Shown here: piece by piece, positions 1 to 61,955 of the stretch | Position numbering within the stretch: the first letter of the stretch is position 1 | Layout: each line of letters begins with the position of its first letter | From: a virus | Direction: 5' to 3' (one strand) | IMG/VR virus record: IMGVR_UViG_3300010399_000001 | Location: 51,047-115,046 of that record | DNA: 64,000 nt | Translations under genes and position numbers: made by a program | The notes under the pieces: generated by a model | What the model was told of the DNA's origin: nothing | What the model saw: only the letters and a program-made list of their open reading frames with translations | Databases searched by the model: none

Positions 1-496
1 CGGCCTCTCGCGCCAGGCCGCGCTCATTCCGGCCATAGACGCGCTGAGACTTCTTCTTGGCTAATGCCCTTAGCCCATTGGCTAGGACCTCTAGCGCTTC
101 GGACTTGCGGCTTGCGGGGCGGCAGCAGCCGTCGCAGCCGTGGACCTGCCAGACATCGCGCCTGTCGTACCGCGCGAGCCAGTCCAGAGAGTCCGGGTCG
201 GGATGACCCACCCCGTGCGGGCAGATGCGCTCGCTCAGGGTCAGCTTCATCCCGTTGCGTACCACCTGGCGATCCATGCGGTGAACCAGCGGCCAGTGGT
301 TCATGTGGTGATTGGAGGGATTGTGGATGCAGCATCGCTGCCCCGCGCAGACCGAGGGGCTGTGGGTGTGCAGGACCGGACGACTATGGATCTCCTGATC
401 CGGACCATCCTTGCCGAGGATGGCGCTGATTTGATAGTCGTCGAAGATCATTGCATTGGCGATCCTGATGCCATCCCATGAACCGGACATGCTCAC
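1..496 (-). CDS. Cys/His-rich hypothetical phage protein, runs off the window start (not in the ORF track)
   Basis: Open frame from GTG 496 / ATG 490 to base 1: ...CAGQRCCIHNPSNHHMNHWP...ERICPHGVGHPDPD...HGCDGCC; GTGA overlap with the upstream stop. Confidence 0.7.
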   Translation of the reverse strand, partial: MSMSGSWDGIRIANAMIFDDYQISAILGKDGPDQEIHSRPVLHTHSPSVCAGQRCCIHNPSNHHMNHWPLVHRMDRQVVRNGMKLTLSERICPHGVGHPDPDSLDWLARYDRRDVWQVHGCDGCCRPASRKSEALEVLANGLRALAKKKSQRVYGRNERGLAREA

Positions 497-1029
497 TGCC
501 TGCTCCCCTCCGCCCATCGGCGGACGTTGCCGAGGTGCTTATCGGTGATACCGGTGCGAGGACTGACCGGCTCGTAGAGGGTCGGCGCGATCATACGGTC
601 CCGCATTCCGGCCTCGGTCAGATCCATCGGGGTGAACTCGTCATCCAGCCATGCGTACGGGCGATGGCGGACATACTCCTCCACGCTCGGCCGCTTCCAG
701 ATCCGCAGGGGATCGCCCCGCTGCCACACGCACTCGATGGTCGGTAACTGCGGCAGACCCAGGATGGGGGCGATCAGCTTGTTTGCCAGATCGTTCCACG
801 CGGTAGCCCAGACTAGATCCACAACGTCGGTCAGCTCAAGAAGCTGCCTGCCGTGATCGGGATTGAGCCACACCCGGATGCCACCCTTGACCCACGGGCG
901 GCCGAGTGGATCGGTGAATGCCCCGCTGAGCAGGCGGTGCGTCTGGAATCCCGGCGGCCTGCGGGTCGGCTTGGCCGCGTAGGGGTTGAGCGGACCGTCC
1001 ACATCGATCAGCAATAGCGGCTTGTTCAT
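493..1029 (-). CDS. HAD-superfamily protein, Swiss-Army-Knife RNA-repair-like HAD
   Basis: LLLIDVDGPLN (motif I), WATAW, WLDDE (motif IV); start reassigned to ATG 1029; directly downstream of Pnkp. Confidence 0.8.
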   Translation of the reverse strand: MNKPLLLIDVDGPLNPYAAKPTRRPPGFQTHRLLSGAFTDPLGRPWVKGGIRVWLNPDHGRQLLELTDVVDLVWATAWNDLANKLIAPILGLPQLPTIECVWQRGDPLRIWKRPSVEEYVRHRPYAWLDDEFTPMDLTEAGMRDRMIAPTLYEPVSPRTGITDKHLGNVRRWAEGSRQ

Positions 1030-1030
1030 C

Positions 1031-1993
1031 TCAGAAGTCTCCGTACTCGACCTGGTGGCAGGGCAGCTTGTAGACCAGCCGCCACAGATCGACCACCTGG
1101 TTGCGGTCGTCATAGACGGCCTCGACGTTGTAGCGGCCTCGGATGTTCTGCTCGAACAGCTGCGACTTGACCACGAAGTCCGGCCGCCTGTCCCCAGTGG
1201 GGCGCATGTGCAGGTCGCTGTACTTGATGTTGTGGGCTCGCAGCCACGCCTCGGTCTGCCTGCGGTACTCCTCCTGGCGGCCGGACAGAAGGATGATCTT
1301 GATCTCGCCGTCGACGTACGGGTAGATGTCGATCAGATTGGCAACTGCCTCGTTCAGGCTGTCGGTCTCCAGCTCCTCCAGGTCGTAGGGACCCCTATCC
1401 GCATGCTTCGCCAGGGTGCCGTCGATATCGAACAGCACGCACCAGGGCAGATCATCGTCGATAACGCAGGGCTGAACTGGGCGGATCAGGTCACGCCACT
1501 CGTTCATCCACTCATCGGTCAGCTTCCAGCCGTCCTTGCGGGTGGACTGATGGCGCTCCCACATACCCCGGATGACCGACTCGCCCACTCGCTCCCCATC
1601 GCGCCGCCCGGCGTCCACGGCGATGCACTCCTCGACCGTCATATCAGTCAGGTCGTGAACCCGGAAGATCACATTGCGGGTGGAGAGGGTCGTGCGGTAC
1701 CGATTGGGCAGCTTGTAGCCCATGTGGGTGTTGTCGATCACCACGTCGTATCCGGCGTCCACCGCGCTCATGACGCCGCGCAGCATGGCCTTCTGAACCA
1801 CCTTCTCGATGGCGTCATCCCATCTGGGGATGCTCATCATCCGGCGGTAGTCGTCCAGATTGAAGCGCATGGCCGAGATGCTGCGAGCGTACGTGCTCTT
1901 GCCAGAGCCGGGCAGGCCGTGCATCACATGGATCACCACCTCCTTACTGGATGGATCGTGACGCGGATCAGCCGCGAGATCGTAGACGCGCAT
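1031..1993 (-). CDS. pseT: Polynucleotide 5'-kinase/3'-phosphatase (T4 Pnkp-like)
   Basis: N-terminal P-loop GLPGSGKST plus IDNT; C-terminal HAD FDIDGTLA, SGR, RRPDFVVK, YDDRNQVV. Confidence 0.93.
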   Translation of the reverse strand: MRVYDLAADPRHDPSSKEVVIHVMHGLPGSGKSTYARSISAMRFNLDDYRRMMSIPRWDDAIEKVVQKAMLRGVMSAVDAGYDVVIDNTHMGYKLPNRYRTTLSTRNVIFRVHDLTDMTVEECIAVDAGRRDGERVGESVIRGMWERHQSTRKDGWKLTDEWMNEWRDLIRPVQPCVIDDDLPWCVLFDIDGTLAKHADRGPYDLEELETDSLNEAVANLIDIYPYVDGEIKIILLSGRQEEYRRQTEAWLRAHNIKYSDLHMRPTGDRRPDFVVKSQLFEQNIRGRYNVEAVYDDRNQVVDLWRLVYKLPCHQVEYGDF

Positions 1994-2132: not shown

Positions 2133-3797
2133 TTAGAAAGGCCAGCTACCATCACCGGCAGACAGCGAGGCCAGCATCGTGAACACCTTGTCGGAGAACC
2201 CGCCGATCTCGTACCGGTTCGGCTTGCTCGTGTCGATGCTGGATGCACCGTAACCCGAGGTGTTGATGCCGAACATCGGCACGCGGTCCGGAATGGCCTC
2301 CGACACGCTCATACCGCGCACCTTGCCGATCGCATCGTAGTAGCCGACCGAACCACCACCGGGGTAGTGGAACGCCTGCATGTCCGAGACGATGACCACC
2401 CGATCATGACCGGAGTAGCTGGCCTTGAGGGCGGCGACCGTCTCGGTACCGTGACCGACCGAGCCGACGCGCTTGCTGAATCCCTCGATGTCGCGCAGCA
2501 GGCTGCCGCCGTTCTTGAGCGGGTACTGGAAGACTCCGTTGGCGAAGCCGACCAGGTCCACATTCTTCGGACCGCACTTACGCGCGATCGCCACGCCGAT
2601 CAGAGCGCCGATATCGACATGACGGATGCTCGACTTGGCCGAGACGTTGCTGTGCATCGATCCGGAGGTGTCTACCAGGACCAGGGTGCGGCCCGGCAGG
2701 TTGGGGATGTTGGCGCATGCGTGACCCAGCGCCTCCTCCAGCGGCTGACCCCAGCGCAGCGAGTTGAGCGAGCGGTAAGCCGACAGGAACCGGTACGGGA
2801 ACTGGCGGGACTTGGCCACCTGAGCCGGGTCGCTGATGCGCGAGGCGACCTTCTCGTAGACCTCCTTGCCAAGCTTGGCCTCATCGAAGTTGCGCAGGTT
2901 GCGCAGCAGCGCCATGTAACCCATCGACGGGATGATCGCCTCCCAGGCGATGCGATCCATCGGGCCCTGGAGCCAGCCGGACAGCGCCTCCCAGGTGATG
3001 CCAGCCTCACGCAGCCGCTCCGCTGCACCGGAAGCCTTGACAAAGCTCCGGCGCTCAGCGAGGGGGAGGGACAGCAGCTCCTTGCGCTTGCGCAGCATCG
3101 TCAGCGACTCGGGGATCTCCTTGCCGCGCCCGTGCCTCTCGTCGATGATGTGCTCGAACAGGTCCCCCTGCTCGGGCGTGACGAATGCGGCGTTGAACCG
3201 GTCGACAGGGTGCACCATCTCGATCACGTCGGCGAAGCGCACACTCTTGTCCGGCGAGTCGTACTTGGAGTACGAGTACTCGCTGTAGAGGCGGCGCACC
3301 GCATCACCGGTACCGCGCTTGATCGAGATCGGGATGCGGTTGCGGCCATAGTTGGCGATCCAGTAGGCCAGCAGCTCCCCCGGCTCGTCGGCGCGAGAGC
3401 ACGCCAGGGAGATCAGGCGGCGGTTGATGCCGACCGGCACATCGTTGCGGATATCGGTCGGAGCCATGAGCGTGCGGGTACGCACCGCCTCGGCGGCGAT
3501 GACGATAGACGCGGTGCGCATGTTGGCCTCGTTGCGCAGCCACGGGATGAAGCCCAGCAGCCACTGCGGGTCCTCGCGCGCAACGGCGGCGGCCAGCTCC
3601 TTCAGGCGCTTGGCCTGGTCGCTCTTGGACTCGTAGAACTTGTCCTCGCCCATGTAGGTGACGGCCAGGATGAACAGGTCGCTCTTGGCGTCACGCTTGA
3701 ACGCCGCCCCACTCTCGAAGGTGGTGGTCTTCTCCCCCGTGGTGCGCACCGGCCCGAGGGTCGCAGTGCCACCCGAACGCTTGTTGAATCCAGACAT
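2133..3797 (-). CDS. rsr: Ro60/Rsr TROVE-domain RNA-binding protein with C-terminal vWA domain
   Basis: TROVE motifs (FYES, LRNEANMR, KYD, TWE, MGYMALLRNLRN, SRQFPYRFLSAY); vWA MIDAS DTSGSM, GT, VSDMQ. Confidence 0.95.
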   Translation of the reverse strand: MSGFNKRSGGTATLGPVRTTGEKTTTFESGAAFKRDAKSDLFILAVTYMGEDKFYESKSDQAKRLKELAAAVAREDPQWLLGFIPWLRNEANMRTASIVIAAEAVRTRTLMAPTDIRNDVPVGINRRLISLACSRADEPGELLAYWIANYGRNRIPISIKRGTGDAVRRLYSEYSYSKYDSPDKSVRFADVIEMVHPVDRFNAAFVTPEQGDLFEHIIDERHGRGKEIPESLTMLRKRKELLSLPLAERRSFVKASGAAERLREAGITWEALSGWLQGPMDRIAWEAIIPSMGYMALLRNLRNFDEAKLGKEVYEKVASRISDPAQVAKSRQFPYRFLSAYRSLNSLRWGQPLEEALGHACANIPNLPGRTLVLVDTSGSMHSNVSAKSSIRHVDIGALIGVAIARKCGPKNVDLVGFANGVFQYPLKNGGSLLRDIEGFSKRVGSVGHGTETVAALKASYSGHDRVVIVSDMQAFHYPGGGSVGYYDAIGKVRGMSVSEAIPDRVPMFGINTSGYGASSIDTSKPNRYEIGGFSDKVFTMLASLSAGDGSWPF

Positions 3798-3798
3798 G

Positions 3799-3827
3799 AA
3801 AAAACCCCTCTCGTCTTGACGGAGGGG
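3799..3827 (-). terminator. Intrinsic-terminator-like hairpin that sequesters the rsr Shine-Dalgarno
   Basis: Minus strand CCCCTC-CGTC-AA-GACG-A-GAGGGG-TTTTTT-C-ATG(rsr). Confidence 0.65.
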
Positions 3828-3834
3828 AAAGGCA

Positions 3835-3987
3835 TGGTAGCGCCCGAGATCAGAAGTCGGTGGCGGTGTTTTCAGTCTTATGCTCTACCTGACTGAGCTA
3901 CCCCACCCGAAGGCGGGGGCAGGATTCGAACCTGCGACCGTAAGATTAGCAATGAAGTATCCGTCACCTGCGCTTCGGGCGCTGCCA
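3835..3987 (-). ncRNA. yrlA: Y RNA unit 1, YrlA-type (circularly permuted tRNA-like domain)
   Basis: CCGAAGCGCAG...; T arm GCAGG-UUCGAAU-CCUGC, acceptor CCCCGCC-UUCG-GGUGGGG, D arm GCUC-AGUCAGGUA-GAGC; ...UGAUCUCGG; adjacent to rsr. Confidence 0.9.
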
Positions 3988-3994
3988 AAACCTT

Positions 3995-4081
3995 TCCCGA
4001 GATCAGTGTGAATGGCGGTATTATGCCTCGAACTACCATGTGAAGGTTATTGAGAAGTAACCGTCATTCTGCGCTTCGGGA
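3995..4081 (-). ncRNA. Y RNA unit 2 (short; hairpin with a tRNA-Val-like 7-nt loop)
   Basis: Same scaffold; insert ACC-UUCACAU-GGU in an imperfect hairpin. Confidence 0.8.
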
Positions 4082-4094
4082 TGAAGCCTTTGGT

Positions 4095-4204
4095 CCCTCC
4101 GAGATCAAGATGGCGATGGAGAGCGGGACTTGAACCCGCAGAATTCCGTTGCTTAGACAGAATCATTCAACCAATGAAGTAACCATCACCTGCGCTTCGG
4201 AGGG
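4095..4204 (-). ncRNA. Y RNA unit 3 (D-like arm, anticodon-like arm and T arm in normal tRNA order)
   Basis: CAUU-GGUUG-AAUG, AUUCUGU-CUAAGCA-ACGGAAU, GCGGG-UUCAAGU-CCCGC inside the scaffold. Confidence 0.82.
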
Positions 4205-4217
4205 TGAAGCAGTAGAT

Positions 4218-4370
4218 ATGGACATCCCCGAGATCGAGTCGACCAAGGTAACGTTAGGCGCTTTAGGCCACTAAGCTACCCCCGGATGAGCCCAGGGGGC
4301 AGGATTCGAACCTGCGATCTCCCGCTCCCAATGCGAAGTAACCCTATGTCTGCGCTTCGGGAATGTCCAT
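4218..4370 (-). ncRNA. yrlA: Y RNA unit 4, YrlA-type permuted tRNA-like domain
   Basis: T arm GCAGG-UUCGAAU-CCUGC, capped acceptor CCCCUGG/CCGGGGG, D arm GCUU-AGUGGCCUA-AAGC; terminal stem atggacat/atgtccat. Confidence 0.88.
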
Positions 4371-4382
4371 AACAAAGCAGGG

Positions 4383-4530
4383 GATGCGGTCCCGAGATCA
4401 ATTCGGCTGGGAGGTGTTTAACGTGCTGCCATTGCACCACCGGCCCAGGAGTGGACCGGACAGGATTCGAACCTGCATCTCTCCATTAGAAGTGAAGTAA
4501 CCCCTTATGCCTGCGCTTCGGGGCCGCATC
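4383..4530 (-). ncRNA. yrlA: Y RNA unit 5, YrlA-type permuted tRNA-like domain
   Basis: T arm GCAGG-UUCGAAU-CCUGU, acceptor CCGGUCC/GGGCCGG, D arm GUGC-AAUGGCA-GCAC; terminal stem gatgcgg/ccgcatc. Confidence 0.88.
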
Positions 4531-4559
4531 TTCTCATTCTCTATTCAGTTGTGAAAAGC

Positions 4560-4692
4560 ATCCCGAGATCAAGCCGGTGAACGAAAGCGCATTGGACCAC
4601 TCTGCCACGACCTGCCTGCACTAGTCAGACAGGCGCTGGGATTCGAACCCAGGTTCTCTGTGAGAAGTAACGCTCAACCTTCGCTTCGGGAT
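4560..4692 (-). ncRNA. yrlA: Y RNA unit 6, YrlA-type permuted tRNA-like domain with a long acceptor stem
   Basis: T arm CUGGG-UUCGAAU-CCCAG, extended stem CCUGUCUG/CAGGCAGG, Ser/Leu-like D arm GCAGAGUGGUCCAAUGC. Confidence 0.85.
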
Positions 4693-4703
4693 ATGAAGTT
4701 TGA

Positions 4704-4784
4704 CAGCTCCGAGATCAAGTCGATGCCAGGCGTTGGTGTCTAATTTACAGTTAGAAGTAACCCGGCTTCTTCGCTTCGGAACTG
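4704..4784 (-). ncRNA. Y RNA unit 7 (first transcribed; carries a tRNA-Tyr-like anticodon stem-loop)
   Basis: Scaffold plus UCUAA-CUGUAAA-UUAGA (5-bp stem, 7-nt loop CU-GUA-AA). Confidence 0.82.
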
Positions 4785-4789
4785 AGACT

Positions 4790-4818
4790 AAGCTACCGTG
4801 CTCATCGGCTAAGTGCAA
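4790..4818 (-). promoter_or_regulatory. Sigma70/HrdB-type promoter of the Y RNA-rsr operon
   Basis: TTGCAC-N17-TAGCTT on the minus strand; predicted start about 4784, the 5' end of unit 7. Confidence 0.75.
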
Positions 4819-4821
4819 GTC

Positions 4822-5601
4822 CTAACTGATGTGCCTGGCGAAGAACGCGGCGATCTCGTGGGTGTCCTCGTCCGGTACCGACGCCAGGAAGCATCCTGCC
4901 ACAGTGAGGGCTGAGTCCAGATCGTCATTAGCCAGAGCCGTGGCGATCTCGTACCCGGTAAACGAGACTCCGTCGATGCTCAGACCCCCATACGGAGCGG
5001 GCCCCGAGCTGGCGATCGCCGCCTTGGCCAGGCTGATCAGAACGCCGAGCTGGGTGTTCATCAGCCCGTCCGTACCAATCAGCGCCCTCCAGATCTTCTT
5101 GAAGGACTCCATGTCGTCCTTGGCCGACACAAGCTCCTGGTAGGCGATGTTGGAGGTCTCGGCGGAGTTGTGCGCGACCTCCTCCATGATCGGGCGCAAC
5201 ATGCTGATCAGCGCACCGAACAGCAACCGGGCGTTACCCTGCGGGTTGGCCTCGACATACCGCCAGATCATGTCGCCGAACACCTTGCTGTTCTCGGGCG
5301 AGGGCGTATTGCGCGCCATGTCTAGGAACGGCGGCACGTCCTTGGCGATCTGCGAGTAGTGCGCCTGATCCTGATTCAGGAACTCCACCGCCTTCTCGTT
5401 TGTATAGTCCTTGCCGACCCATACGCACAGCGCGCCGATAGAGCCCATGACCTTGAACTTCGCGGCCGGGTCCCCCTTCAGGGCGTTCGCCTCATTCAGG
5501 CCCCACCATGCAGAGCAGGCGAGCATCCCTTCGTCGCCGCTGTAGAAGCGGTACATGAGAGAACGTATCTCTTCGGCGAGATCTCCATGCGTCGTCCCCA
5601 T
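4822..5601 (-). CDS. Hypothetical alpha-helical protein
   Basis: Long ORF with coding-like codon usage; start reassigned to MGTTHG. Confidence 0.65.
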   Translation of the reverse strand: MGTTHGDLAEEIRSLMYRFYSGDEGMLACSAWWGLNEANALKGDPAAKFKVMGSIGALCVWVGKDYTNEKAVEFLNQDQAHYSQIAKDVPPFLDMARNTPSPENSKVFGDMIWRYVEANPQGNARLLFGALISMLRPIMEEVAHNSAETSNIAYQELVSAKDDMESFKKIWRALIGTDGLMNTQLGVLISLAKAAIASSGPAPYGGLSIDGVSFTGYEIATALANDDLDSALTVAGCFLASVPDEDTHEIAAFFARHIS

Positions 5602-5665
5602 GAGGACCCATCCTTTCGAAGCGCGGCGGACCGATGCGTACACCGGTCCGCCGCAAAGCCGGTGC

Positions 5666-6526
5666 CTACCTGCGAGGCTGGGGGAAGTTGTCGTTGGACA
5701 GTCCACCCTGCGGGAGCTGGAGCTTGTACCGCGACGCCTTAGAGCGGTACGCGTTCCATGCGTAGATGATGAATGCGATGTACACGTCGGACGGGATGCG
5801 CCGGTGCTCCTTCTGGCGACGGTCGTTCTCGCGCCGGATGCGGTCGCGCAGCACCAGGATCGGGTGATTGGCCTCCAGCCCCGCTCCGTCGCACAGGCGC
5901 TCCAGGAAGTACGTGCCTTCCACGGGATTGCTGTTCATCAGCAGCCAGTGCACGAAGGACAGGATGGAGGCGTGCACACCAACCTTGCGGTAGTTGGTGA
6001 TGCCGTAATCCACCGACACCCGCAGGTGCGGGTACCGGGCGAGCACGTCCTCCAGTTCAGAGTGGCTGGGGCGCAGGCCACTACCGCCCTGGACGTAGCA
6101 CCCAACCTCCCATAGGGCGATACGCCGCAGCGCCGCCGACAGGGTGGAGTAGTGCGACTCGCCAGCCAGGTTCAGCTGGTCACGGAACGCCCTCGGGCGG
6201 CCCGTATCGATCACCTTCTGGTCTTCGATCGAGGCTCCGTAGTGCACCAGAAGCTCTACGGTCGCACCAGACTGCGCGATAGCTGCCAGCCGGTGCTGAC
6301 CATCCACGATGACAAGGCCGCCATCCTGGGTCCTGGCGAACTCGACGGCCTTGGCGATGCGACGCCAGCGACCAGCGAGCATGTCGCGGGCGTACTGATC
6401 CACGACGGACTGGGAGATCGTGCGGTTGTGGCCGTTGCGCGTCTCCAGCCACAGCTTCGCCATGGCGGGAGTGACCTTCACCCACTGCGGGGCGGTCGGA
6501 GGTTCAGATTGAATGGCCTTGGGCAC
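5666..6526 (-). CDS. ParB/Srx-fold (DGQHR) DNA-associated protein
   Basis: VTPAMAKLWL..NR......V..YARDM..GRW...DGQHRLAAI; GTG start after the AGAAAGG RBS. Confidence 0.8.
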   Translation of the reverse strand: MPKAIQSEPPTAPQWVKVTPAMAKLWLETRNGHNRTISQSVVDQYARDMLAGRWRRIAKAVEFARTQDGGLVIVDGQHRLAAIAQSGATVELLVHYGASIEDQKVIDTGRPRAFRDQLNLAGESHYSTLSAALRRIALWEVGCYVQGGSGLRPSHSELEDVLARYPHLRVSVDYGITNYRKVGVHASILSFVHWLLMNSNPVEGTYFLERLCDGAGLEANHPILVLRDRIRRENDRRQKEHRRIPSDVYIAFIIYAWNAYRSKASRYKLQLPQGGLSNDNFPQPRR

Positions 6527-9519: not shown

Positions 9520-10207
9520 GCCGCTTGCGGTGGTGTCCCTCTCGGGCGGGATGGACTCCACGACCCTGCTGGCCCACCTGCTGCAAGACAATGAGGTGCT
9601 GGCTCTATCGTTCGACTACGGACAGCGCCACCGCAAGGAGCTGGACGCGGCCAGGGATGTCTCGCAGTACTACGGCGTCGAGCATCACGTGATCGATCTG
9701 ACCTCGGTGGGCAAGCTGCTGACCGGCTCGGCTCTTACCGACAGCTCGGTAGAGGTTCCCGAGGGTCACTACGAGGCCGAGAACATGAAGGCCACCGTCG
9801 TGCCGAACCGCAACGCGATCATGGCCAGCATCGCCATCGGTATTGCCAGTTCGCGCAAGGCGAAGTTCGTGGCTCTCGGCATCCATGCCGGTGATCACGC
9901 GGTCTACCCGGACTGCCGGCCTGAGTTCGTCGAGGTGCTGCGGGAGCTGGCCTCTGTGGCGCTGGACGGCTTCCATGCCCCACGCATCGAGACTCCGTTC
10001 GTGCTGTGGTCCAAGACTGGCATTGCGCGTGAGGCTGGACGCCTCGGGGTCCCGATCGAGCGCACGTGGAGCTGCTACAAGGGTGGCGAGAAACACTGCG
10101 GCCGATGCGGTACCTGCGTCGAGCGCATCGAGGCGATGCGGGACGCAGACGTGGCAGATCTGACCGAATACGAAGATAAGGCGTTCGCCGAGGGGGTGCT
10201 GGCCTGA
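9512..10207 (+). CDS. queC: 7-cyano-7-deazaguanine synthase
   Basis: SGGMDS, FDYGQRH, VPNRN, YPDCRPEF, TWSCY, CGRCGTC. Confidence 0.97.
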   Translation: MSKPLAVVSLSGGMDSTTLLAHLLQDNEVLALSFDYGQRHRKELDAARDVSQYYGVEHHVIDLTSVGKLLTGSALTDSSVEVPEGHYEAENMKATVVPNRNAIMASIAIGIASSRKAKFVALGIHAGDHAVYPDCRPEFVEVLRELASVALDGFHAPRIETPFVLWSKTGIAREAGRLGVPIERTWSCYKGGEKHCGRCGTCVERIEAMRDADVADLTEYEDKAFAEGVLA

Positions 10208-45828: not shown

Positions 45829-45896
45829 TGCGCCCATGAGGATTTGAACCTCAAACCTCCGGTAAACCGGTGCTCTGGCAGTTGAGCTACAGGCGC
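45829..45896 (-). ncRNA. tRNA-like RNA lacking an anticodon loop (4-nt loop)
   Basis: GCGCCUG/UGGGCGC acceptor, D arm GCUC-AACUGCCA-GAGC, CCGG-UUUA-CCGG, T arm UGAGG-UUCAAAU-CCUCA; hairpin 45789-45826 follows. Confidence 0.8.
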
Positions 45897-58129: not shown

Positions 58130-61100
58130 TTACTCGTCCCTGCCGTAGGCCTGGTCGCGCGCCCTGCGCAGGGCCTTGATCAGATCGTTGATCTCGCTGC
58201 GGCTGAGCACCATGGAGAAGGTCTCCTTCTTCTCGCCCAGCAGATCGACGTGGCGTACCGCGTCGCGCTCGGCAATGGCCTTCTCCAGGCGAGCGCAGTA
58301 CTCGTCCCAGGTGGCGTCGTTGTACTCGACAAGGGAGACCTGCACGTTGCCGGTGCGATCATGCCCGGCGGCGGCCCAGCGAACGGAGATCTGCGGCCAG
58401 GTGTCCGTCATGACGACGCACTCGGGTGGGCATCCGCCAGGATGGCAGTTGCGGTGCACCTGCTGCACGTCGGGAAAGCCGATCATTTCCTTCGGCATCA
58501 CGCCTCTTTTCCATCACGGAAGGGTCTTGCCCATCACGGGCAAGACCACCATACCGCTAGGAGAGCAGGCCGAGAAGGGCCTGGTTGCATACCGAGCAGA
58601 CCCTGGCCTTGAAGTGGATCGAGACGGCGTTTCCGTCGAAAGACTTGCGCCAGGTCACCGAGGGCTGCTCGTCGATGATCACCAGATGCCGCTGGAGGAT
58701 GGGCATGGCGATGTCCCGATCCTCGCCATGAAAGGTGATGTAGCCGGGGTGCAGGGAAGACTCACCCATCTTCTCGATCAGGGCCATATGCTCATCGGAG
58801 ATGGGTTTGACGCTGTAGTCGATGTTCGGGAAGTCCATGCAGCCACCCTGGCAGCAGTGGCCGGTGCGCACTCCGGCCGCCACCAGCTCCTCCACCAGAT
58901 CGACCATGCCCTCGTCGATCTTCTCCAGGCGGCCGTCGATCTCGATCAGGCGGTACGGGTGATGGTTGGGCGCGTAATCCCGATACAGCCCGCACTCGCA
59001 CGAGTCGGTCGATGGGTACGGCGCGCTGTTGGGGTGGTCGAACCTGAAAGCGTGCTGGTGCATCTACGGCCTCTCCAAGGCGAATAGCTCGTACGAATAC
59101 CACAGGTTGCTGCGGTTGTCCTGGCCCCACTGGTCAGCGAGTTCGCGGCTATCGAACGGGCCGACCACCCTCATGGCCTGGTCGTCGATCTCCTGCATCA
59201 CATAGAAGATCATCACGCACCATTGCAGGCGCGGGTCCGGCGCAGGCCCATAGCCATGCGGAACGCTCCACTGCATCAGATGATCCTCACCTCGTCGCTG
59301 GGTGCGTAGATCTGCTCGATACCCTCCAGCGGTTCGATCAGGTCGATGCGCACCACCTGGCGACCGCCCCAGATCCTCTCTGCCGCCCCGTATCCCTCAT
59401 AGGTGCGCCCGTTGTCCACGTGGCTCAACTTGCGGCCCTGATACCTGCGCATGGAGTTCAGGTCCATCACCATTGCTGCTCAGATGGGTAACTTGTAGTA
59501 GCCATCCTGGCCTTCCATGATCTTGTCTATGCTGTCGATGTGGTCCTCGCACAACAGGAAGACCGCTGTGATGTCAACCACCAGGGGATGCGTACCGGCG
59601 TTCGGGCATGGCTCGCTCCAGCCCTGATGGAGGGTATTGGTCAGATCTCGACCGGCCGCACAGGGTCTCATCTCGTCCATACGAGTATTGTAGCATGTTT
59701 CATATCAAGCTATCAACATCCCGCTGTGCGCTAGAGTTTTGGTACCGGCAAGACGCGCACGCCGAGCCGCATCGCCCGCACACGATGGCAGGCCAAGGCC
59801 CCTCGGGCCCGCGCGCCGCGCCCCTGACACCACCTCCGCAGGGGCGCGGCTATAAATCTACGACGGCGGACATTTACCCCAGATCTCGTACATGACCTGA
59901 TCGCCCAGGGTGCAGCACAGCTTGCCCGCATCCGCCATCCACTGATTGCGACCCTGCGGGGTGGCACCGTCCGGCATCAGAGCGATCATCTTCTGCATCA
60001 CCGTGAGGGTCGCGGCAATACCGTTCGCGCCGTAGACCGGACACGGTGCCCAGTGACGCCAGCACCACTGATCGTGCGTCCAGCCTTCCGGGGTGTCGTC
60101 AAGAAACTGATCGAACCACTTGGAGGGGTCTTGCCGCATGGCGCACCCGGCCTAGATCGAGGAGTTGAAGCCGATCGAGGCCTTCTGCTTACGCTCCTGC
60201 GAGTTCCCCCGCACCAGCGTTGCCAGGCTGCCCGGCTCGACCCTGTTCACCCGGCTTACGATCTGACCCTTTTCGTCCAGTTCCATCACCCTTCTCCTCT
60301 CGCTTGTCATGATTCCCGCTCAGCGTCTTGTTCGCCGCGCGGAAGCTGTCGTCGATACCCGTGGCATCGCTCCACTCGAACATGAACGGCTCGGTGCCGT
60401 CCCCGATCAGCTCCCAGCCGATCGCCTTGTCATCCTTGAACACCAGCACCATCGCGTACCCTCGCGGGTGCAGGACGGCGGTATTGACGAGCCATAGCAG
60501 GCCGCTGGTCGACAAGTCTTCGAAGTTCCTCATCGCTTACCTCTACCAGTCGCCGATGGTCGGTGTGCTGCGCGATCAATCTATCCGCCTGCTCCAGCGC
60601 GGTGATCATGTCGTCGCCCTTGTGGAATATGCGGGCCTTGAACCACGGGTGCATGTCGCAGGCCAGGTGGATGTGTCCGGGGCGCTTCTGGCGGGTGATA
60701 CCCGGCTCGATCCTGCGCCACGGTGCGTCGATTGTGGTGGTCCACATCCGCACGATGTGCTCGATCACAGCGCCACCTGACCTTGAGGACTCTCCCGATG
60801 GGCATTCTGCACCAGGGTCATGATGCTCATCGCGATCTTGGTGCTCTTACCGGGGAAGTTGAACACAAAGGTGCAATCGGTGCACCGCAGGTGAGGCTGG
60901 CCGCCGATCACCAGCTCCATGTCGTGATCACTCACATCGGCTCCGGGTCTTCAGGCTCCGGCTCCACCCCTGCGCAGTCGGCATGTACCACTACGGTGCC
61001 GCCATTAGCCCAGAGGCGACCTTCCCGGCGGTCCTCGGGGTGGAAACCCACCAGGACCATGGTGATCGGGGTGCCTTCAAAGCCCTGGTCGCATACCGGA

Positions 61101-61955
61101 CACGTCCAACCGTCACGGATCAGCCAGTGATCGGGCTGCGGAGGGGGTTTCCACCCGAAGGTGGTGATGGGAGAGTCAGTCTTCGCCCTGATGGGAACCA
61201 TCGGCATTCTCCTTGATCCACTTGAGCTTGGCCAGACCGCCGTCGTCGATGATCTGCTTGAGGATTTGGGCGACATGCTGCGCTTTGCGCTCGCTGCACT
61301 CGCAGTCGCAACCCTCGATCGCATAGGGAGAGTCGCAGCAGTTGCACTCCTCGTCGCAGGGGACCGAGTACTGCTTGCATGAGCACTGCCCGACCCTAGG
61401 CAAGATTCATCCCGAGGGGAGGGTGCTGGATGGGGTTACCGGCCTTGGCGTCGCGCACGGCGCGGATCGCGAACTGCTCGGCAACCTCATCACTGAGCGG
61501 CGCGGGGCGATCGGGATGATGACCCTTGCCGTAGAACAGGTCCAGATCGCCCTGATGGGCGCGCTTGAAGTACTCGGCCCACAGCCGGGTCTGGGCGATG
61601 TCTCGAAGATCATCGAAGCTACCGGTCATGACTCCTGCCTGATCTTGTCGGCGACCATGCGCAGCAGGTAGATGAGCTGATGGTCGTTATAGCACTGCGG
61701 ATCGCGCTCGATATTGGATGCCATGTACTCCAGGATCTCCGGGTTGCTGCGTCGGCGGATGTGCAGGGTCGTGGCGTGACCCTCACCGGCGATGATGGTG
61801 CTCTCGCGTAGGGCATCGGTGCGATCGAACGCATCGGACCACGCGGTAGGCATGGGCTCGGTCGGCATCCGATCATCGGGGGTGTAGGCCATCGGCTCAC
61901 CCATCGCCTGATGGAGGCGCTCGCAGATCGGGCACCAGATCACCTCGTCGCTCAT
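58130..61955 (-). other. Run of small minus-strand hypothetical ORFs (58130-58501, 58557-59063, 59064-59276, 59276-59473, 59480-59680, 59858-60139, 60189-60533, 60430-60768, ~60932-61200, 61176-61403, 61396-61629, 61626-61955)
   Basis: Tightly coupled short ORFs, many Cys-rich; typical early accessory region. Confidence 0.55.
59683..59696 (-). promoter_or_regulatory. Extended -10 promoter; leaderless transcript of ORF 59480-59680
   Basis: TGCTACAAT then 6 nt to ATG 59680. Confidence 0.65.

What the first reader, a model, noticed from the sequence alone, without database searches (positions are those of the whole stretch)
3835..4784. Polycistronic array of seven Y RNAs with one constant Ro60-binding scaffold and interchangeable tRNA-part payloads
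Seen: seven tandem units on the minus strand. Each reads 5'-[unit-specific stem]-CCGAAGCG(C/A)AG-[stem]-(U/A)UACUUC-[variable domain]-[stem']-GAUCUCGG-3'. Terminal stems covary between units, which indicates selection on structure. A TTGCAC-N17-TAGCTT promoter points at unit 7, and rsr lies directly downstream of the array. The payloads differ: units 1, 4, 5 and 6 are circularly permuted T-acceptor-D elbows, unit 3 has D-anticodon-T arms in normal order, and units 2 and 7 are bare anticodon stem-loops. Known: YrlA-class Y RNAs with a permuted tRNA-like domain sit next to rsr in bacteria and some phages. Inference: this phage builds a library of Ro60 RNPs that each display a different face of tRNA, a modular tRNA-mimic or decoy system, plausibly against host anticodon nucleases or tRNA-sensing immunity. 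I do not know of Y RNAs displaying anticodon arms.
Basis: partly seen in the sequence, partly recalled or inferred. Interest (0 to 1): 0.95.

Follow-up and report, generated by a model that had tools for sequence, protein, structure and literature searches.

The report
Seven-gene Y RNA array before phage Ro60
An uncultivated 115-kb phage carries seven back-to-back small RNA genes that share one docking module for the phage's Ro60 ring protein but carry different tRNA-derived heads; this is a large, well-supported example of a known RNA-protein partnership, and what the heads do is still untested.

Summary
Seven units on the minus strand (3839-4784) share CCGAAGCG(C/A)AG...(U/A)UACUUC...GAUCUCGG (0 expected by chance). 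Each closes with its own covarying stem, and a TROVE/Ro60 gene follows directly.

A covariance model built only from other phages' units finds all seven: 112, 110, 93 and 54 bits for the four YrlA-type units, 27-43 bits for the other three.

Such arrays are common. Eighty viral loci fetched by Ro60 homology gave 191 model hits, all on the rsr strand and nearly all upstream of it. Arrays reach nine units, and this scan has reported similar arrays on other DNA.

The scaffold is uniform within a phage. Head types are shared between phages.

The non-YrlA heads are not decay. Unit 7's hairpin (loop CUGUAAA) and unit 3's D-like/anticodon-like/T cloverleaf both recur in a phage whose Ro60 is 52% identical. 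Unit 2 has no orthologue.

An anticodon-arm-like hairpin (C-U-N-N-N-A-A loop) right after UACUUC is strongly enriched family-wide (51/159 against 0.1%).

The units are Y RNAs for the phage Ro60. The proposed role as decoys against anticodon nucleases is untested, and the triplets vary between orthologues. I class this as a new variant of a known kind.

The parts
4790..4818 (-). Promoter-like TTGCAC-N17-TAGCTT, directly after the stop codon of the upstream ORF. The second hexamer ends 6 nt before unit 7.
   Evidence: Read from the sequence. The sigma-70 scan did not report it. Inferred only.
4704..4784 (-). Unit 7: a minimal Y RNA of 81 nt. Scaffold plus one hairpin, UCUAA-CUGUAAA-UUAGA (4739-4755).
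   Evidence: Model R1 gives 43.2 bits, E 2e-10. Orthologue at L469:1239-1320 has the identical loop and a compensatory change in the stem.
4559..4693 (-). Unit 6: YrlA-type, with T arm, 8-bp closed acceptor hairpin and a D arm like that of class II tRNAs.
   Evidence: R1 54.5 bits, E 2e-11. Aligned in A4. A similar D arm is seen in L469:2173-2303.
4386..4527 (-). Unit 5: YrlA-type. It also has an anticodon-arm-like hairpin, CUUCA-CUUCUAA-UGGAG (4481-4497), 4 nt before the T arm.
   Evidence: R1 92.7 bits. Rfam YrlA 25.4 bits. The Rfam tRNA model scores 30.6 bits across its 5' half. Hairpin listed.
4217..4371 (-). Unit 4: YrlA-type, with a 13-bp terminal stem.
   Evidence: R1 112.2 bits, E 2e-25. 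Rfam YrlA 27.9 bits. Nearest head is L220:4649-4793, 77% identical.
4095..4204 (-). Unit 3: cloverleaf in tRNA order. D-like hairpin UUCA-UUGGU-UGAA, a long hairpin with loop CUAAGCA (4150-4156), and a T arm (4123-4139). The scaffold stem stands in the acceptor position.
   Evidence: Fold. Rfam tRNA 19.4 bits, E 0.68. R1 40 bits through the scaffold only. Orthologue L469:1560-1673 is 73% identical.
3995..4081 (-). Unit 2: short Y RNA of 87 nt with an imperfect hairpin, apex ACC-UUCACAU-GGU (4035-4047).
   Evidence: R1 27.3 bits, E 1.6e-6. Its only relative is the motif ACC-AUUCACA-GG in BRock and GiJojo units. No orthologue was found.
3839..3983 (-). Unit 1: canonical YrlA-type, with T arm, 7-bp closed acceptor hairpin and D arm.
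   Evidence: Rfam YrlA 50.2 bits, E 7e-10, below the gathering score of 69. R1 109.8 bits.
3799..3827 (-). Terminator-like hairpin CCCCUCC...GAGGGG followed by U6. Its 3' arm holds the likely ribosome-binding site, and it ends 1 nt before the rsr ATG.
   Evidence: Present in both the MFE and the centroid structure. The terminator scan missed it because the stem is imperfect. Function is inferred.
2133..3797 (-). rsr: phage Ro60 orthologue of 554 aa.
   Evidence: Pfam TROVE 1.8e-14. phrog_850 2.8e-50. Thermus phage Ro60 structures 9KOP/9L5Y, E 3.5e-23.
1031..1993 (-). Polynucleotide kinase-phosphatase (Pnkp).
   Evidence: HAD_PNKP 1.8e-46 and AAA_33 4.6e-12. phrog_505 5e-76.
493..1113 (-). HAD phosphatase of the 'Swiss Army Knife RNA repair' type.
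   Evidence: HAD_SAK_2 1.1e-5, just under the Pfam cut-off. Homologues lie beside the Y RNA arrays of L469, L176 and L199.

Best explanation
The region is a row of seven Y RNA genes, probably made as one transcript and cut into separate RNAs.

Each RNA has the same docking module: a terminal helix, a conserved internal loop (CGAAGCG.AG opposite UGAUCUC), an inner helix, then the YUAY-type element UUACUUC. This module is most likely the binding site for the phage's own Ro60 ring protein, which is encoded directly downstream.

The heads differ:
- Four are YrlA-type tRNA elbows (T arm, closed acceptor stem, D arm).
- One is a cloverleaf in normal tRNA order.
- Two are minimal hairpins.

The most likely role of the heads is as adaptors or gates. 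On this view each Ro60-Y RNA particle is steered to a different partner, such as host PNPase, tRNA-processing or tRNA-modifying enzymes, or RNA-repair enzymes, or to a different RNA substrate during infection.

Shown here: the anatomy, the membership of all seven units, the synteny with rsr, and selection on both scaffold and heads. Inferred: transcription, processing, Ro60 binding and the partners.
For: Identity of the units:
- Seven exact scaffold copies, 0 expected.
- A covariance model built from 22 units of other phages finds all seven, on the rsr strand only, at 112 to 27 bits.
- The YrlA-type fold is backed by covariation: 94.5% of cells are paired against 63.5% in shuffles and 33-45% in slid controls, and 29 of 33 pairs show compensatory changes.
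- The constant CGAAG and UUAC match the GNCGAAN0-1G and YUAY features of YrlA (PMC4201824, section 6).

Linkage to rsr:
- 26 of 28 tandem arrays have rsr on the same strand: 25 directly downstream, one (L044) upstream of the array. The two without are truncated loci.
- 191 model hits in 80 loci chosen by Ro60 protein all lie on the rsr strand, and nearly all lie upstream of rsr.

Evolution of scaffold and heads:
- The 3' scaffold motif is uniform within an array and differs between arrays. One motif maps to one well-supported Ro60 clade.
- Heads behave the opposite way. Each YrlA-type head in the window is closer to a head in another phage (0.46-0.77) than to its neighbours (0.35-0.52).
- Short heads are 76-91% conserved among phages whose Ro60 genes are 71-73% identical at the DNA level.

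Precedent: the Ro60 of Thermus phage phiLo, a homologue at E 3.5e-23, binds two upstream Y-like RNAs and forms a complex with host PNPase (PMC12135203).
Against: - There are no expression, processing or binding data for this phage, which is known only from a metagenome.
- All Rfam YrlA scores are below the gathering threshold (best 50.2 against 69).
- The promoter is weak by consensus.
- Partners of the heads are unknown.
- Unit 2 has no orthologue, so selection on it is not shown.
- The Ro60 tree is poorly resolved at depth, so co-evolution of scaffold and protein is shown for one clade only.
Confidence: 0.62

Rival explanations
1. Decoy library. The heads, above all the anticodon-arm-like hairpins, imitate host tRNAs. 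They would soak up or block anticodon nucleases or tRNA-sensing immune proteins, and Pnkp and the HAD phosphatase would heal whatever still gets cut.
For: - A hairpin with a C-U-N-N-N-A-A loop directly after UACUUC is strongly enriched: 13/50 against 1.2% background (p 4e-14). In an independent set it is 51/159 against 0.11% (p 9e-90).
- Unit 7's loop CUGUAAA matches, from memory, the usual bacterial tRNA-Tyr anticodon loop. It is kept, with a compensatory stem change, in L469.
- tRNA finders read this hairpin as an anticodon arm in the GenBank records for GiJojo, LuckySocke and VanLee.
- Pnkp and HAD genes follow rsr.
- A competitive-inhibitor role for YrlA has been suggested in print (PMC7790460, section 17).
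Against: - The middle triplet varies among orthologous short units (GUA, GUA, GCU, AUU, CUU) and takes 22 values overall. 71% of loops end in UAA, which fits a protein-binding loop motif as well as it fits an anticodon mimic.
- Pnkp lies next to rsr only in this phage, in 0 of about 108 other loci.
- No Rnl2-type ligase or RtcB is present in the genome.
- Three of the four YrlA-type heads (u1, u4, u6) expose no such loop.
- Nothing here tests nuclease binding.
Confidence: 0.2
2. Cis-acting leader. The array is mainly a structured 5' leader of the rsr mRNA. On this view Ro60 binds its own leader and, together with the terminator-like hairpin over the ribosome-binding site, sets its own synthesis.
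For: - 25 of the 26 arrays with a linked rsr sit directly upstream of it on the same strand, as do nearly all the model hits.
- A hairpin plus U6 covers the likely ribosome-binding site and ends 1 nt before the ATG.
Against: - Every unit is a closed, self-contained fold with its own terminal stem, like processed Y RNAs.
- In L044 the array lies downstream of rsr.
- Bacterial YrlA/YrlB and Yrn1/Yrn2 are cut from polycistronic precursors into stable RNAs (PMC4201824, sections 8-9).
- Seven different conserved heads are not needed for feedback.
Confidence: 0.1
3. Relics. The units are decaying copies of YrlA or of tRNA genes with no present function.
For: - Unit 2 has no orthologue.
- Unit 3 scores poorly on the tRNA model.
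- In many related phages the arrays lie inside tRNA clusters.
Against: - Scaffold motifs are identical in all seven units while the heads have diverged.
- Covariation is strong.
- Units 7 and 3 have orthologues in a distant phage.
- Short units are as conserved as the Ro60 gene.
Confidence: 0.03

Closest known systems
YrlA / YrlB Y RNAs with Rsr (Salmonella Typhimurium, Mycobacterium smegmatis, mycobacteriophages; Rfam RF02553; Chen et al. 2014, PMC4201824)
   Same: - Encoded next to rsr on the same strand.
- A 5'/3' stem carrying a CGAA-type motif, and a YUAY element.
- A permuted T arm / closed acceptor stem / D arm head, in units 1, 4, 5 and 6.
- A shorter companion RNA without that head.
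- Production from a polycistronic precursor, shown for the bacterial RNAs.
   Different: - Seven genes instead of two.
- Scores below the Rfam gathering threshold.
- A family-specific scaffold (GA[A/U]GCG.AG ... UUACUUC ... UCUC) that is uniform within a phage.
- Extra head types: a normal-order cloverleaf and anticodon-arm-like minimal hairpins.
- Nothing has been tested experimentally.
Deinococcus radiodurans Yrn1 / Yrn2 (PMC4201824, sections 6, 9 and 10)
   Same: Yrn1 is modelled with D-like features, an anticodon-like arm and a T arm in tRNA order, which is the topology of unit 3. Yrn2, tRNA-Asp and Yrn1 are made as one precursor.
   Different: - The Ro-binding helix has a different sequence.
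- Yrn1's anticodon-like loop has 6 nt; unit 3's has 7 nt on a longer stem.
- In this phage the two topologies share one scaffold in one array.
Thermus phage phiLo Ro60 with Yrl1 / Yrl2 (PMC12135203; PDB 9KOP, 9L5Y)
   Same: A phage Ro60 homologous to this one (E 3.5e-23), with Y-like RNAs upstream that carry a CGAA motif in a stem-bulge-stem. Binding and a complex with host PNPase were shown in vitro.
   Different: Two simple hairpin RNAs. 'tRNA-like' and 'YrlA' do not occur in that paper's text. Host and phage lineage are different.
Phage tRNA repair (T4 Pnkp with Rnl1 against the PrrC anticodon nuclease; from my own knowledge)
   Same: A Pnkp gene sits two genes from the array, and the system has a tRNA theme.
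   Different: No RNA ligase was found in this genome. The Pnkp linkage is not conserved in other arrays. No nuclease target is known.

Membership tests
Bacterial/phage Y RNA, YrlA family (RF02553; Chen et al. 2014) | Encoded within about 4 kb of a Ro60 orthologue, on the same strand | tested here: met
   Unit 1 ends 41 nt before the rsr ATG, and all units are on the minus strand.
Bacterial/phage Y RNA, YrlA family (RF02553; Chen et al. 2014) | 5' and 3' ends pair into a stem that carries a conserved CGAA-type motif near the 5' end | tested here: met
   All seven units have CCGAAGCG next to a unit-specific terminal helix. The leading G of the published GNCGAA motif is not always present.
Bacterial/phage Y RNA, YrlA family (RF02553; Chen et al. 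2014) | YUAY element that opens the V region | tested here: met
   (U/A)UACUUC is present in all seven units. The hairpin that follows starts inside it.
Bacterial/phage Y RNA, YrlA family (RF02553; Chen et al. 2014) | tRNA-like head: T arm, closed acceptor-like stem, D arm, in that order | tested here: met
   Met for units 1, 4, 5 and 6. Not met for units 2, 3 and 7, which are Y RNAs of the YrlB or Yrn1 kind rather than YrlA.
Bacterial/phage Y RNA, YrlA family (RF02553; Chen et al. 2014) | Score at or above the Rfam gathering threshold (69 bits) | tested here: not met
   The best score is 50.2 bits, for unit 1. Units 4 and 5 score 27.9 and 25.4 bits, and the rest give no hit. The family-specific model R1 gives 27-112 bits.
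Bacterial/phage Y RNA, YrlA family (RF02553; Chen et al. 2014) | Stable small RNA bound by Ro60 in vivo | not testable with these tools
   Needs Northern blots or small-RNA sequencing and Rsr immunoprecipitation.
tRNA (RF00005) | Cloverleaf scoring above 29 bits, with a free acceptor end and an anticodon arm | tested here: not met
   ARAGORN calls no tRNA in the array. Unit 3 scores 19.4 bits. The 30.6-bit hit at 4452-4525 spans scaffold, hairpin, T arm and half of the closed acceptor stem of unit 5, so it is not a tRNA gene.
Ro60 / Rsr protein (TROVE) | TROVE (HEAT-repeat ring) domain and homology to solved Ro60 structures | tested here: met
   PF05731 1.8e-14, phrog_850 2.8e-50 over residues 19-549, 9KOP E 3.5e-23. 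The vWA/MIDAS residues were not examined.
Yrn1-type Y RNA (tRNA-order head) | D-like, anticodon-like and T arms in tRNA order, with the Ro-binding stem in the acceptor position | tested here: inconclusive
   Unit 3 folds this way, and its orthologue in L469 keeps all three hairpins, but the tRNA-model score is not significant. Clear examples on the same scaffold are L115:1999-2061 at 47.1 bits and L163:3706-3767 at 37.2 bits.

The most novel reading that the evidence does not exclude
Phage Ro60 arrays are a combinatorial set of RNPs whose heads each present a different part of tRNA: the elbow, the whole cloverleaf, or the anticodon arm alone. The anticodon-arm-like hairpin (C-U-N-N-N-A-A) would be a working mimic that binds host enzymes acting on anticodon loops, meaning nucleases of immune or toxin systems or loop-modifying enzymes. 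That would make the array an RNA-based counter-defence or tRNA-surveillance device, with a repertoire that differs from phage to phage.
Probability: 0.17. Interest if true: 0.85.

Novelty: new variant of a known kind. Interest (0 to 1): 0.6.

Why it matters
Why bacterial Y RNAs imitate tRNA has been an open question since 2014, and these arrays offer a natural experiment. One Ro60 protein is paired with up to nine heads that fall into conserved classes: three tRNA permutations and bare hairpins. Each class can therefore be deleted or swapped on its own in cultured relatives such as BRock, GiJojo and LuckySocke.

The finding also has a practical side. These genes are unannotated, or mis-annotated as tRNAs, in deposited actinophage genomes. 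The standard Rfam model misses most of them.

If the anticodon-arm-like hairpin proves to bind tRNA-targeting enzymes, phage Ro60 particles would join phage tRNAs and tRNA repair as a third answer to tRNA-directed immunity.

Tried and rejected
- **Close relatives by DNA.** Megablast against GenBank phages found none. The distant mode gave only 44-90-nt matches, such as BRock at 78% over 90 nt.
- **Single-protein scan.** The search for related loci with the Ro60 protein alone found nothing. An alignment of nine Ro60 proteins was needed.
- **Pattern scans of metagenome and genome collections.** They returned mostly single matches. Only one metagenome locus (L231) had rsr nearby, and no bacterial-genome locus did, so nothing can be said about host Y RNAs.
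- **First-hairpin survey by local MFE.** It was too crude because it often picked T arms. I replaced it with an explicit enumeration and a background control.
- **Ro60 tree.** It is poorly resolved, and two rows (L184, L158) were wrong ORFs. I used it only for the UUUCUA clade.
- **GAAG/CUUC pairing inside the scaffold.** RNAalifold suggested it, but it does not covary: GAUG variants keep CUUC. Rejected.
- **'Largest array'.** This held only in my first sample. The protein-based set contains 8- and 9-unit arrays.
- **CACCA after the unit 7 hairpin as a CCA-like tail.** It is not conserved in the orthologues.
- **Reviews.** Two Ro60/Y RNA reviews, PMC10870794 and PMC6542706, are not held in the library.
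Full report
**Source and observation**

The window is the second half of a complete 115,046-bp viral record with direct terminal repeats and 62.5% G+C.

On the minus strand between 3839 and 4784 the pattern CCGAAGCG(C/A)AG-N5-14-TACTTC occurs exactly seven times. None occurred in 100 shuffles, and there is no other copy in the genome. Each copy is followed 40-110 nt later by GATCTCGG. Each is closed by a terminal helix whose sequence is private to the unit. At seven variable positions of those helices, 5.1 pair with the cognate strand and 2.8 with the strands of other units.

- The proposed promoter TTGCAC-N17-TAGCTT is there (4818-4790), and its second hexamer ends 6 nt before unit 7. It is weak by consensus and the scan did not report it.
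- Between unit 1 and the next gene lies a hairpin followed by U6. It covers the likely ribosome-binding site.

**Surroundings**

- The next gene (2133-3797, same strand) is a Ro60 orthologue: TROVE 1.8e-14, phrog_850 2.8e-50, and homology at E 3.5e-23 to the solved Ro60 of Thermus phage phiLo.
- A polynucleotide kinase-phosphatase and a HAD phosphatase follow.
- The genome has no Rnl2-type ligase and no RtcB.
- It encodes only tRNA-Asp, tRNA-Met and tRNA-Asn, plus one odd tRNA-like gene.

**Are the units Y RNAs?**

Rfam's YrlA model hits unit 1 (50.2 bits, E 7e-10), unit 4 (27.9) and unit 5 (25.4). All are below the gathering score of 69.

The constant elements match what Chen et al. describe for YrlA: a CGAA-type motif near the 5' end, and a YUAY that opens the V region (PMC4201824, section 6).

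For an independent test I collected related arrays, aligned 22 YrlA-type units from other phages and built a covariance model with no window sequence in it. In the window it finds all seven units, on the minus strand only:

| Unit | Bits |
|---|---|
| u4 | 112.2 |
| u1 | 109.8 |
| u5 | 92.7 |
| u6 | 54.5 |
| u7 | 43.2 |
| u3 | 40.0 |
| u2 | 27.3 |

Units 7, 3 and 2 are matched through the scaffold alone.

In a 26-unit alignment that includes the four long window units, the structure is terminal helix, inner helix, T arm, closed acceptor-like hairpin and D arm. In it 94.5% of cells are paired, against 63.5% in shuffles and 33-45% when partners are slid. 29 of 33 pairs show compensatory changes.

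**How general is the arrangement?**

A loosened 5' core, GA[A/T]GCG-N1-2-RG-N5-14-[A/T]TACTTC, occurs in tandem in 28 fetched loci. These include the GenBank phages BRock, GiJojo, LuckySocke and Neville.

- 26 of the 28 have rsr on the same strand: 25 directly downstream, one (L044) upstream of the array. The other two loci are cut short.
- Eighty further loci were fetched through an alignment of Ro60 proteins rather than through any RNA pattern. They gave 191 model hits at E <= 0.001. All are on the rsr strand and nearly all lie upstream of rsr.
- Those loci carry 1 to 9 UACUUC units each, so seven is large but not the record.
- Earlier notes of this scan report similar arrays on other DNA, up to about ten or eleven units. 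I did not check those.

The papers I could search describe one or two Y RNAs per locus and YrlA in 22 phages. None describes arrays of this size or head diversity.

**Scaffold against heads**

Within an array the 3' scaffold motif is uniform; between arrays it differs. The window has UGAUCUC, the BRock clade has UUUUCUA, and others have AGUUCUC, GGUUCAC or UGAACAC. The UUUCUA form maps to one well-supported Ro60 clade.

Heads behave the other way round.

- Each YrlA-type head in the window is more like a head in another phage (0.63, 0.77, 0.60, 0.46) than like any sister head (at most 0.52).
- The constant scaffold parts are more alike within the window (0.83) than across phages (0.73).

This is what one expects if all units of a phage must fit one protein while head classes are old and non-redundant.

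**The non-YrlA heads**

They are conserved.

- In BRock, GiJojo and LuckySocke the two short unit types are 76-91% identical, while the Ro60 genes are 71-73% identical at the DNA level.
- L469 comes from a 111-kb contig whose Ro60 is 52% identical to the window's. It has nine units.
- Its first unit has the hairpin UUCAAA-CUGUAAA-UUUGAA. The loop is the same as in unit 7, and the stem carries a compensatory change.
- Its fourth unit is 73% identical to unit 3. It keeps the D-like hairpin, a 5-bp stem with loop CUUCCAA, and an almost identical T arm.
- Its eighth unit shares unit 6's class-II-like D arm.
- Its fifth unit shows yet another order: closed acceptor hairpin, D, anticodon-like arm, T.
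- L115 and L163 carry tRNA bodies in normal order inside the scaffold, at 47.1 and 37.2 bits on the tRNA model. The topology claimed for unit 3 is therefore real in the family, even though unit 3 itself scores only 19.4 bits.
- Unit 2 has no orthologue. Its only relative is a shared motif, ACC-(A)UUCACA-GG, in the BRock clade.

**The anticodon-like hairpin**

The hairpin of unit 7 is not a special graft. A hairpin starting inside UACUUC is common to the family, and unit 5 has one too (CUUCA-CUUCUAA-UGGAG, 4 nt before its T arm).

I counted candidate hairpins with a 7-nt loop and at least 4 bp placed directly after UACUUC, and asked how many have C-U-N-N-N-A-A loops.

| Set | After UACUUC | Background hairpins, same loci | p |
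|---|---|---|---|
| First set | 13 of 50 | 1.2% | 4e-14 |
| Independent protein-derived set | 51 of 159 | 0.11% | 9e-90 |

Related sequences inflate these numbers, but the effect is large. The middle triplet takes 22 values. 71% of the loops end in UAA.

GenBank annotators' software read this hairpin as an anticodon arm. It called tRNA-Arg(cct) in GiJojo, tRNA-Ser(gct) in LuckySocke and tRNA-Arg(tct) in VanLee, each inside a Y RNA unit.

The feature fits mimicry of an anticodon loop. It fits equally a loop motif for some other protein, or a relic of descent from tandem tRNA genes. Chen et al. note that a tRNA dimer resembles YrlA (PMC4201824, section 18).

**Function**

Best supported is a set of Ro60 particles with one docking module and several adaptor heads.

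- The phiLo phage Ro60 binds its upstream Y-like RNAs and joins host PNPase in vitro (PMC12135203).
- In bacteria, Y RNA tethers Rsr to PNPase, and the rsr-yrl-rtcBA operon responds to broken tRNAs (PMC4201824; PMC7790460).

The decoy idea is not excluded, and a form of it has been voiced before (PMC7790460, section 17). Against it:

- the Pnkp linkage is unique to this phage, found in 0 of about 108 other loci;
- no ligase is present;
- the triplets drift between orthologues.

I put the Y RNA identity near 0.9, the adaptor model as a whole at about 0.6 and the decoy model at about 0.2.

**Verdict**

The feature is real and strongly supported. It is a new variant of a known kind (YrlA/Yrn-type Y RNAs with Ro60), notable for the number of units, the coexistence of tRNA permutations on one scaffold, and the conserved anticodon-arm-like hairpin.

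Noticed in passing
window 45829-45896 (minus strand): A 68-nt tRNA-like gene (Rfam tRNA 53.6 bits) whose anticodon arm is replaced by a CCGG-UUUA-CCGG tetraloop hairpin. ARAGORN does not call it. It is a tRNA body without an anticodon in a phage that also has the Y RNA array.
   Followed up: partly
window 9527-10144 (plus strand; G000 60573-61190): A QueC (preQ0 synthesis) gene about 5 kb from the array, at 1.4e-63. No Pfam TGT match was found in the genome. The two decoding tRNAs called by ARAGORN besides Met are Asp(GUC) and Asn(GUU), both GUN anticodons like the GUA in unit 7's loop. This may be coincidence.
   Followed up: partly
L102:2269-2343, L103:2274-2347, L105:2177-2248: GenBank records of the phages GiJojo, LuckySocke and VanLee annotate tRNA-Arg(cct), tRNA-Ser(gct) and tRNA-Arg(tct) just upstream of Ro. 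Each call lies inside a YrlA-type Y RNA unit and takes the post-UACUUC hairpin as the anticodon arm. The other units of those arrays are unannotated.
   Followed up: partly
L469:1681-1827: A Y RNA unit with a third tRNA permutation: closed acceptor hairpin, then D arm, anticodon-like arm and T arm. The scaffold joins between the T stem and the acceptor strand.
   Followed up: no
window spacers at 4694-4703, 4205-4216 and 4082-4094; L008 spacers: Three of the six spacers end in CUUCA just before the next unit's terminal stem, and BRock spacers carry ACUUCA likewise. This echoes the UACUUC of the scaffold. It could be a processing signal or a trace of duplication.
   Followed up: no
window 493-1113; L469:642-1136; L176; L199: Homologues of the HAD phosphatase (35-39% identical) lie beside the Y RNA/Ro60 locus in three other phage contigs. 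Pnkp does not.
   Followed up: partly
L008, L102, L103, L143, L165, L176, L082, L199: In many related phages the Y RNA array and rsr sit inside clusters of 10-25 tRNA genes. This phage has almost no tRNA genes, and none near the array.
   Followed up: partly
window 4822-5706 (minus strand): The 294-aa ORF that ends 4 nt upstream of the promoter-like site has no Pfam or PHROG match and no homologue in the other array loci.
   Followed up: partly
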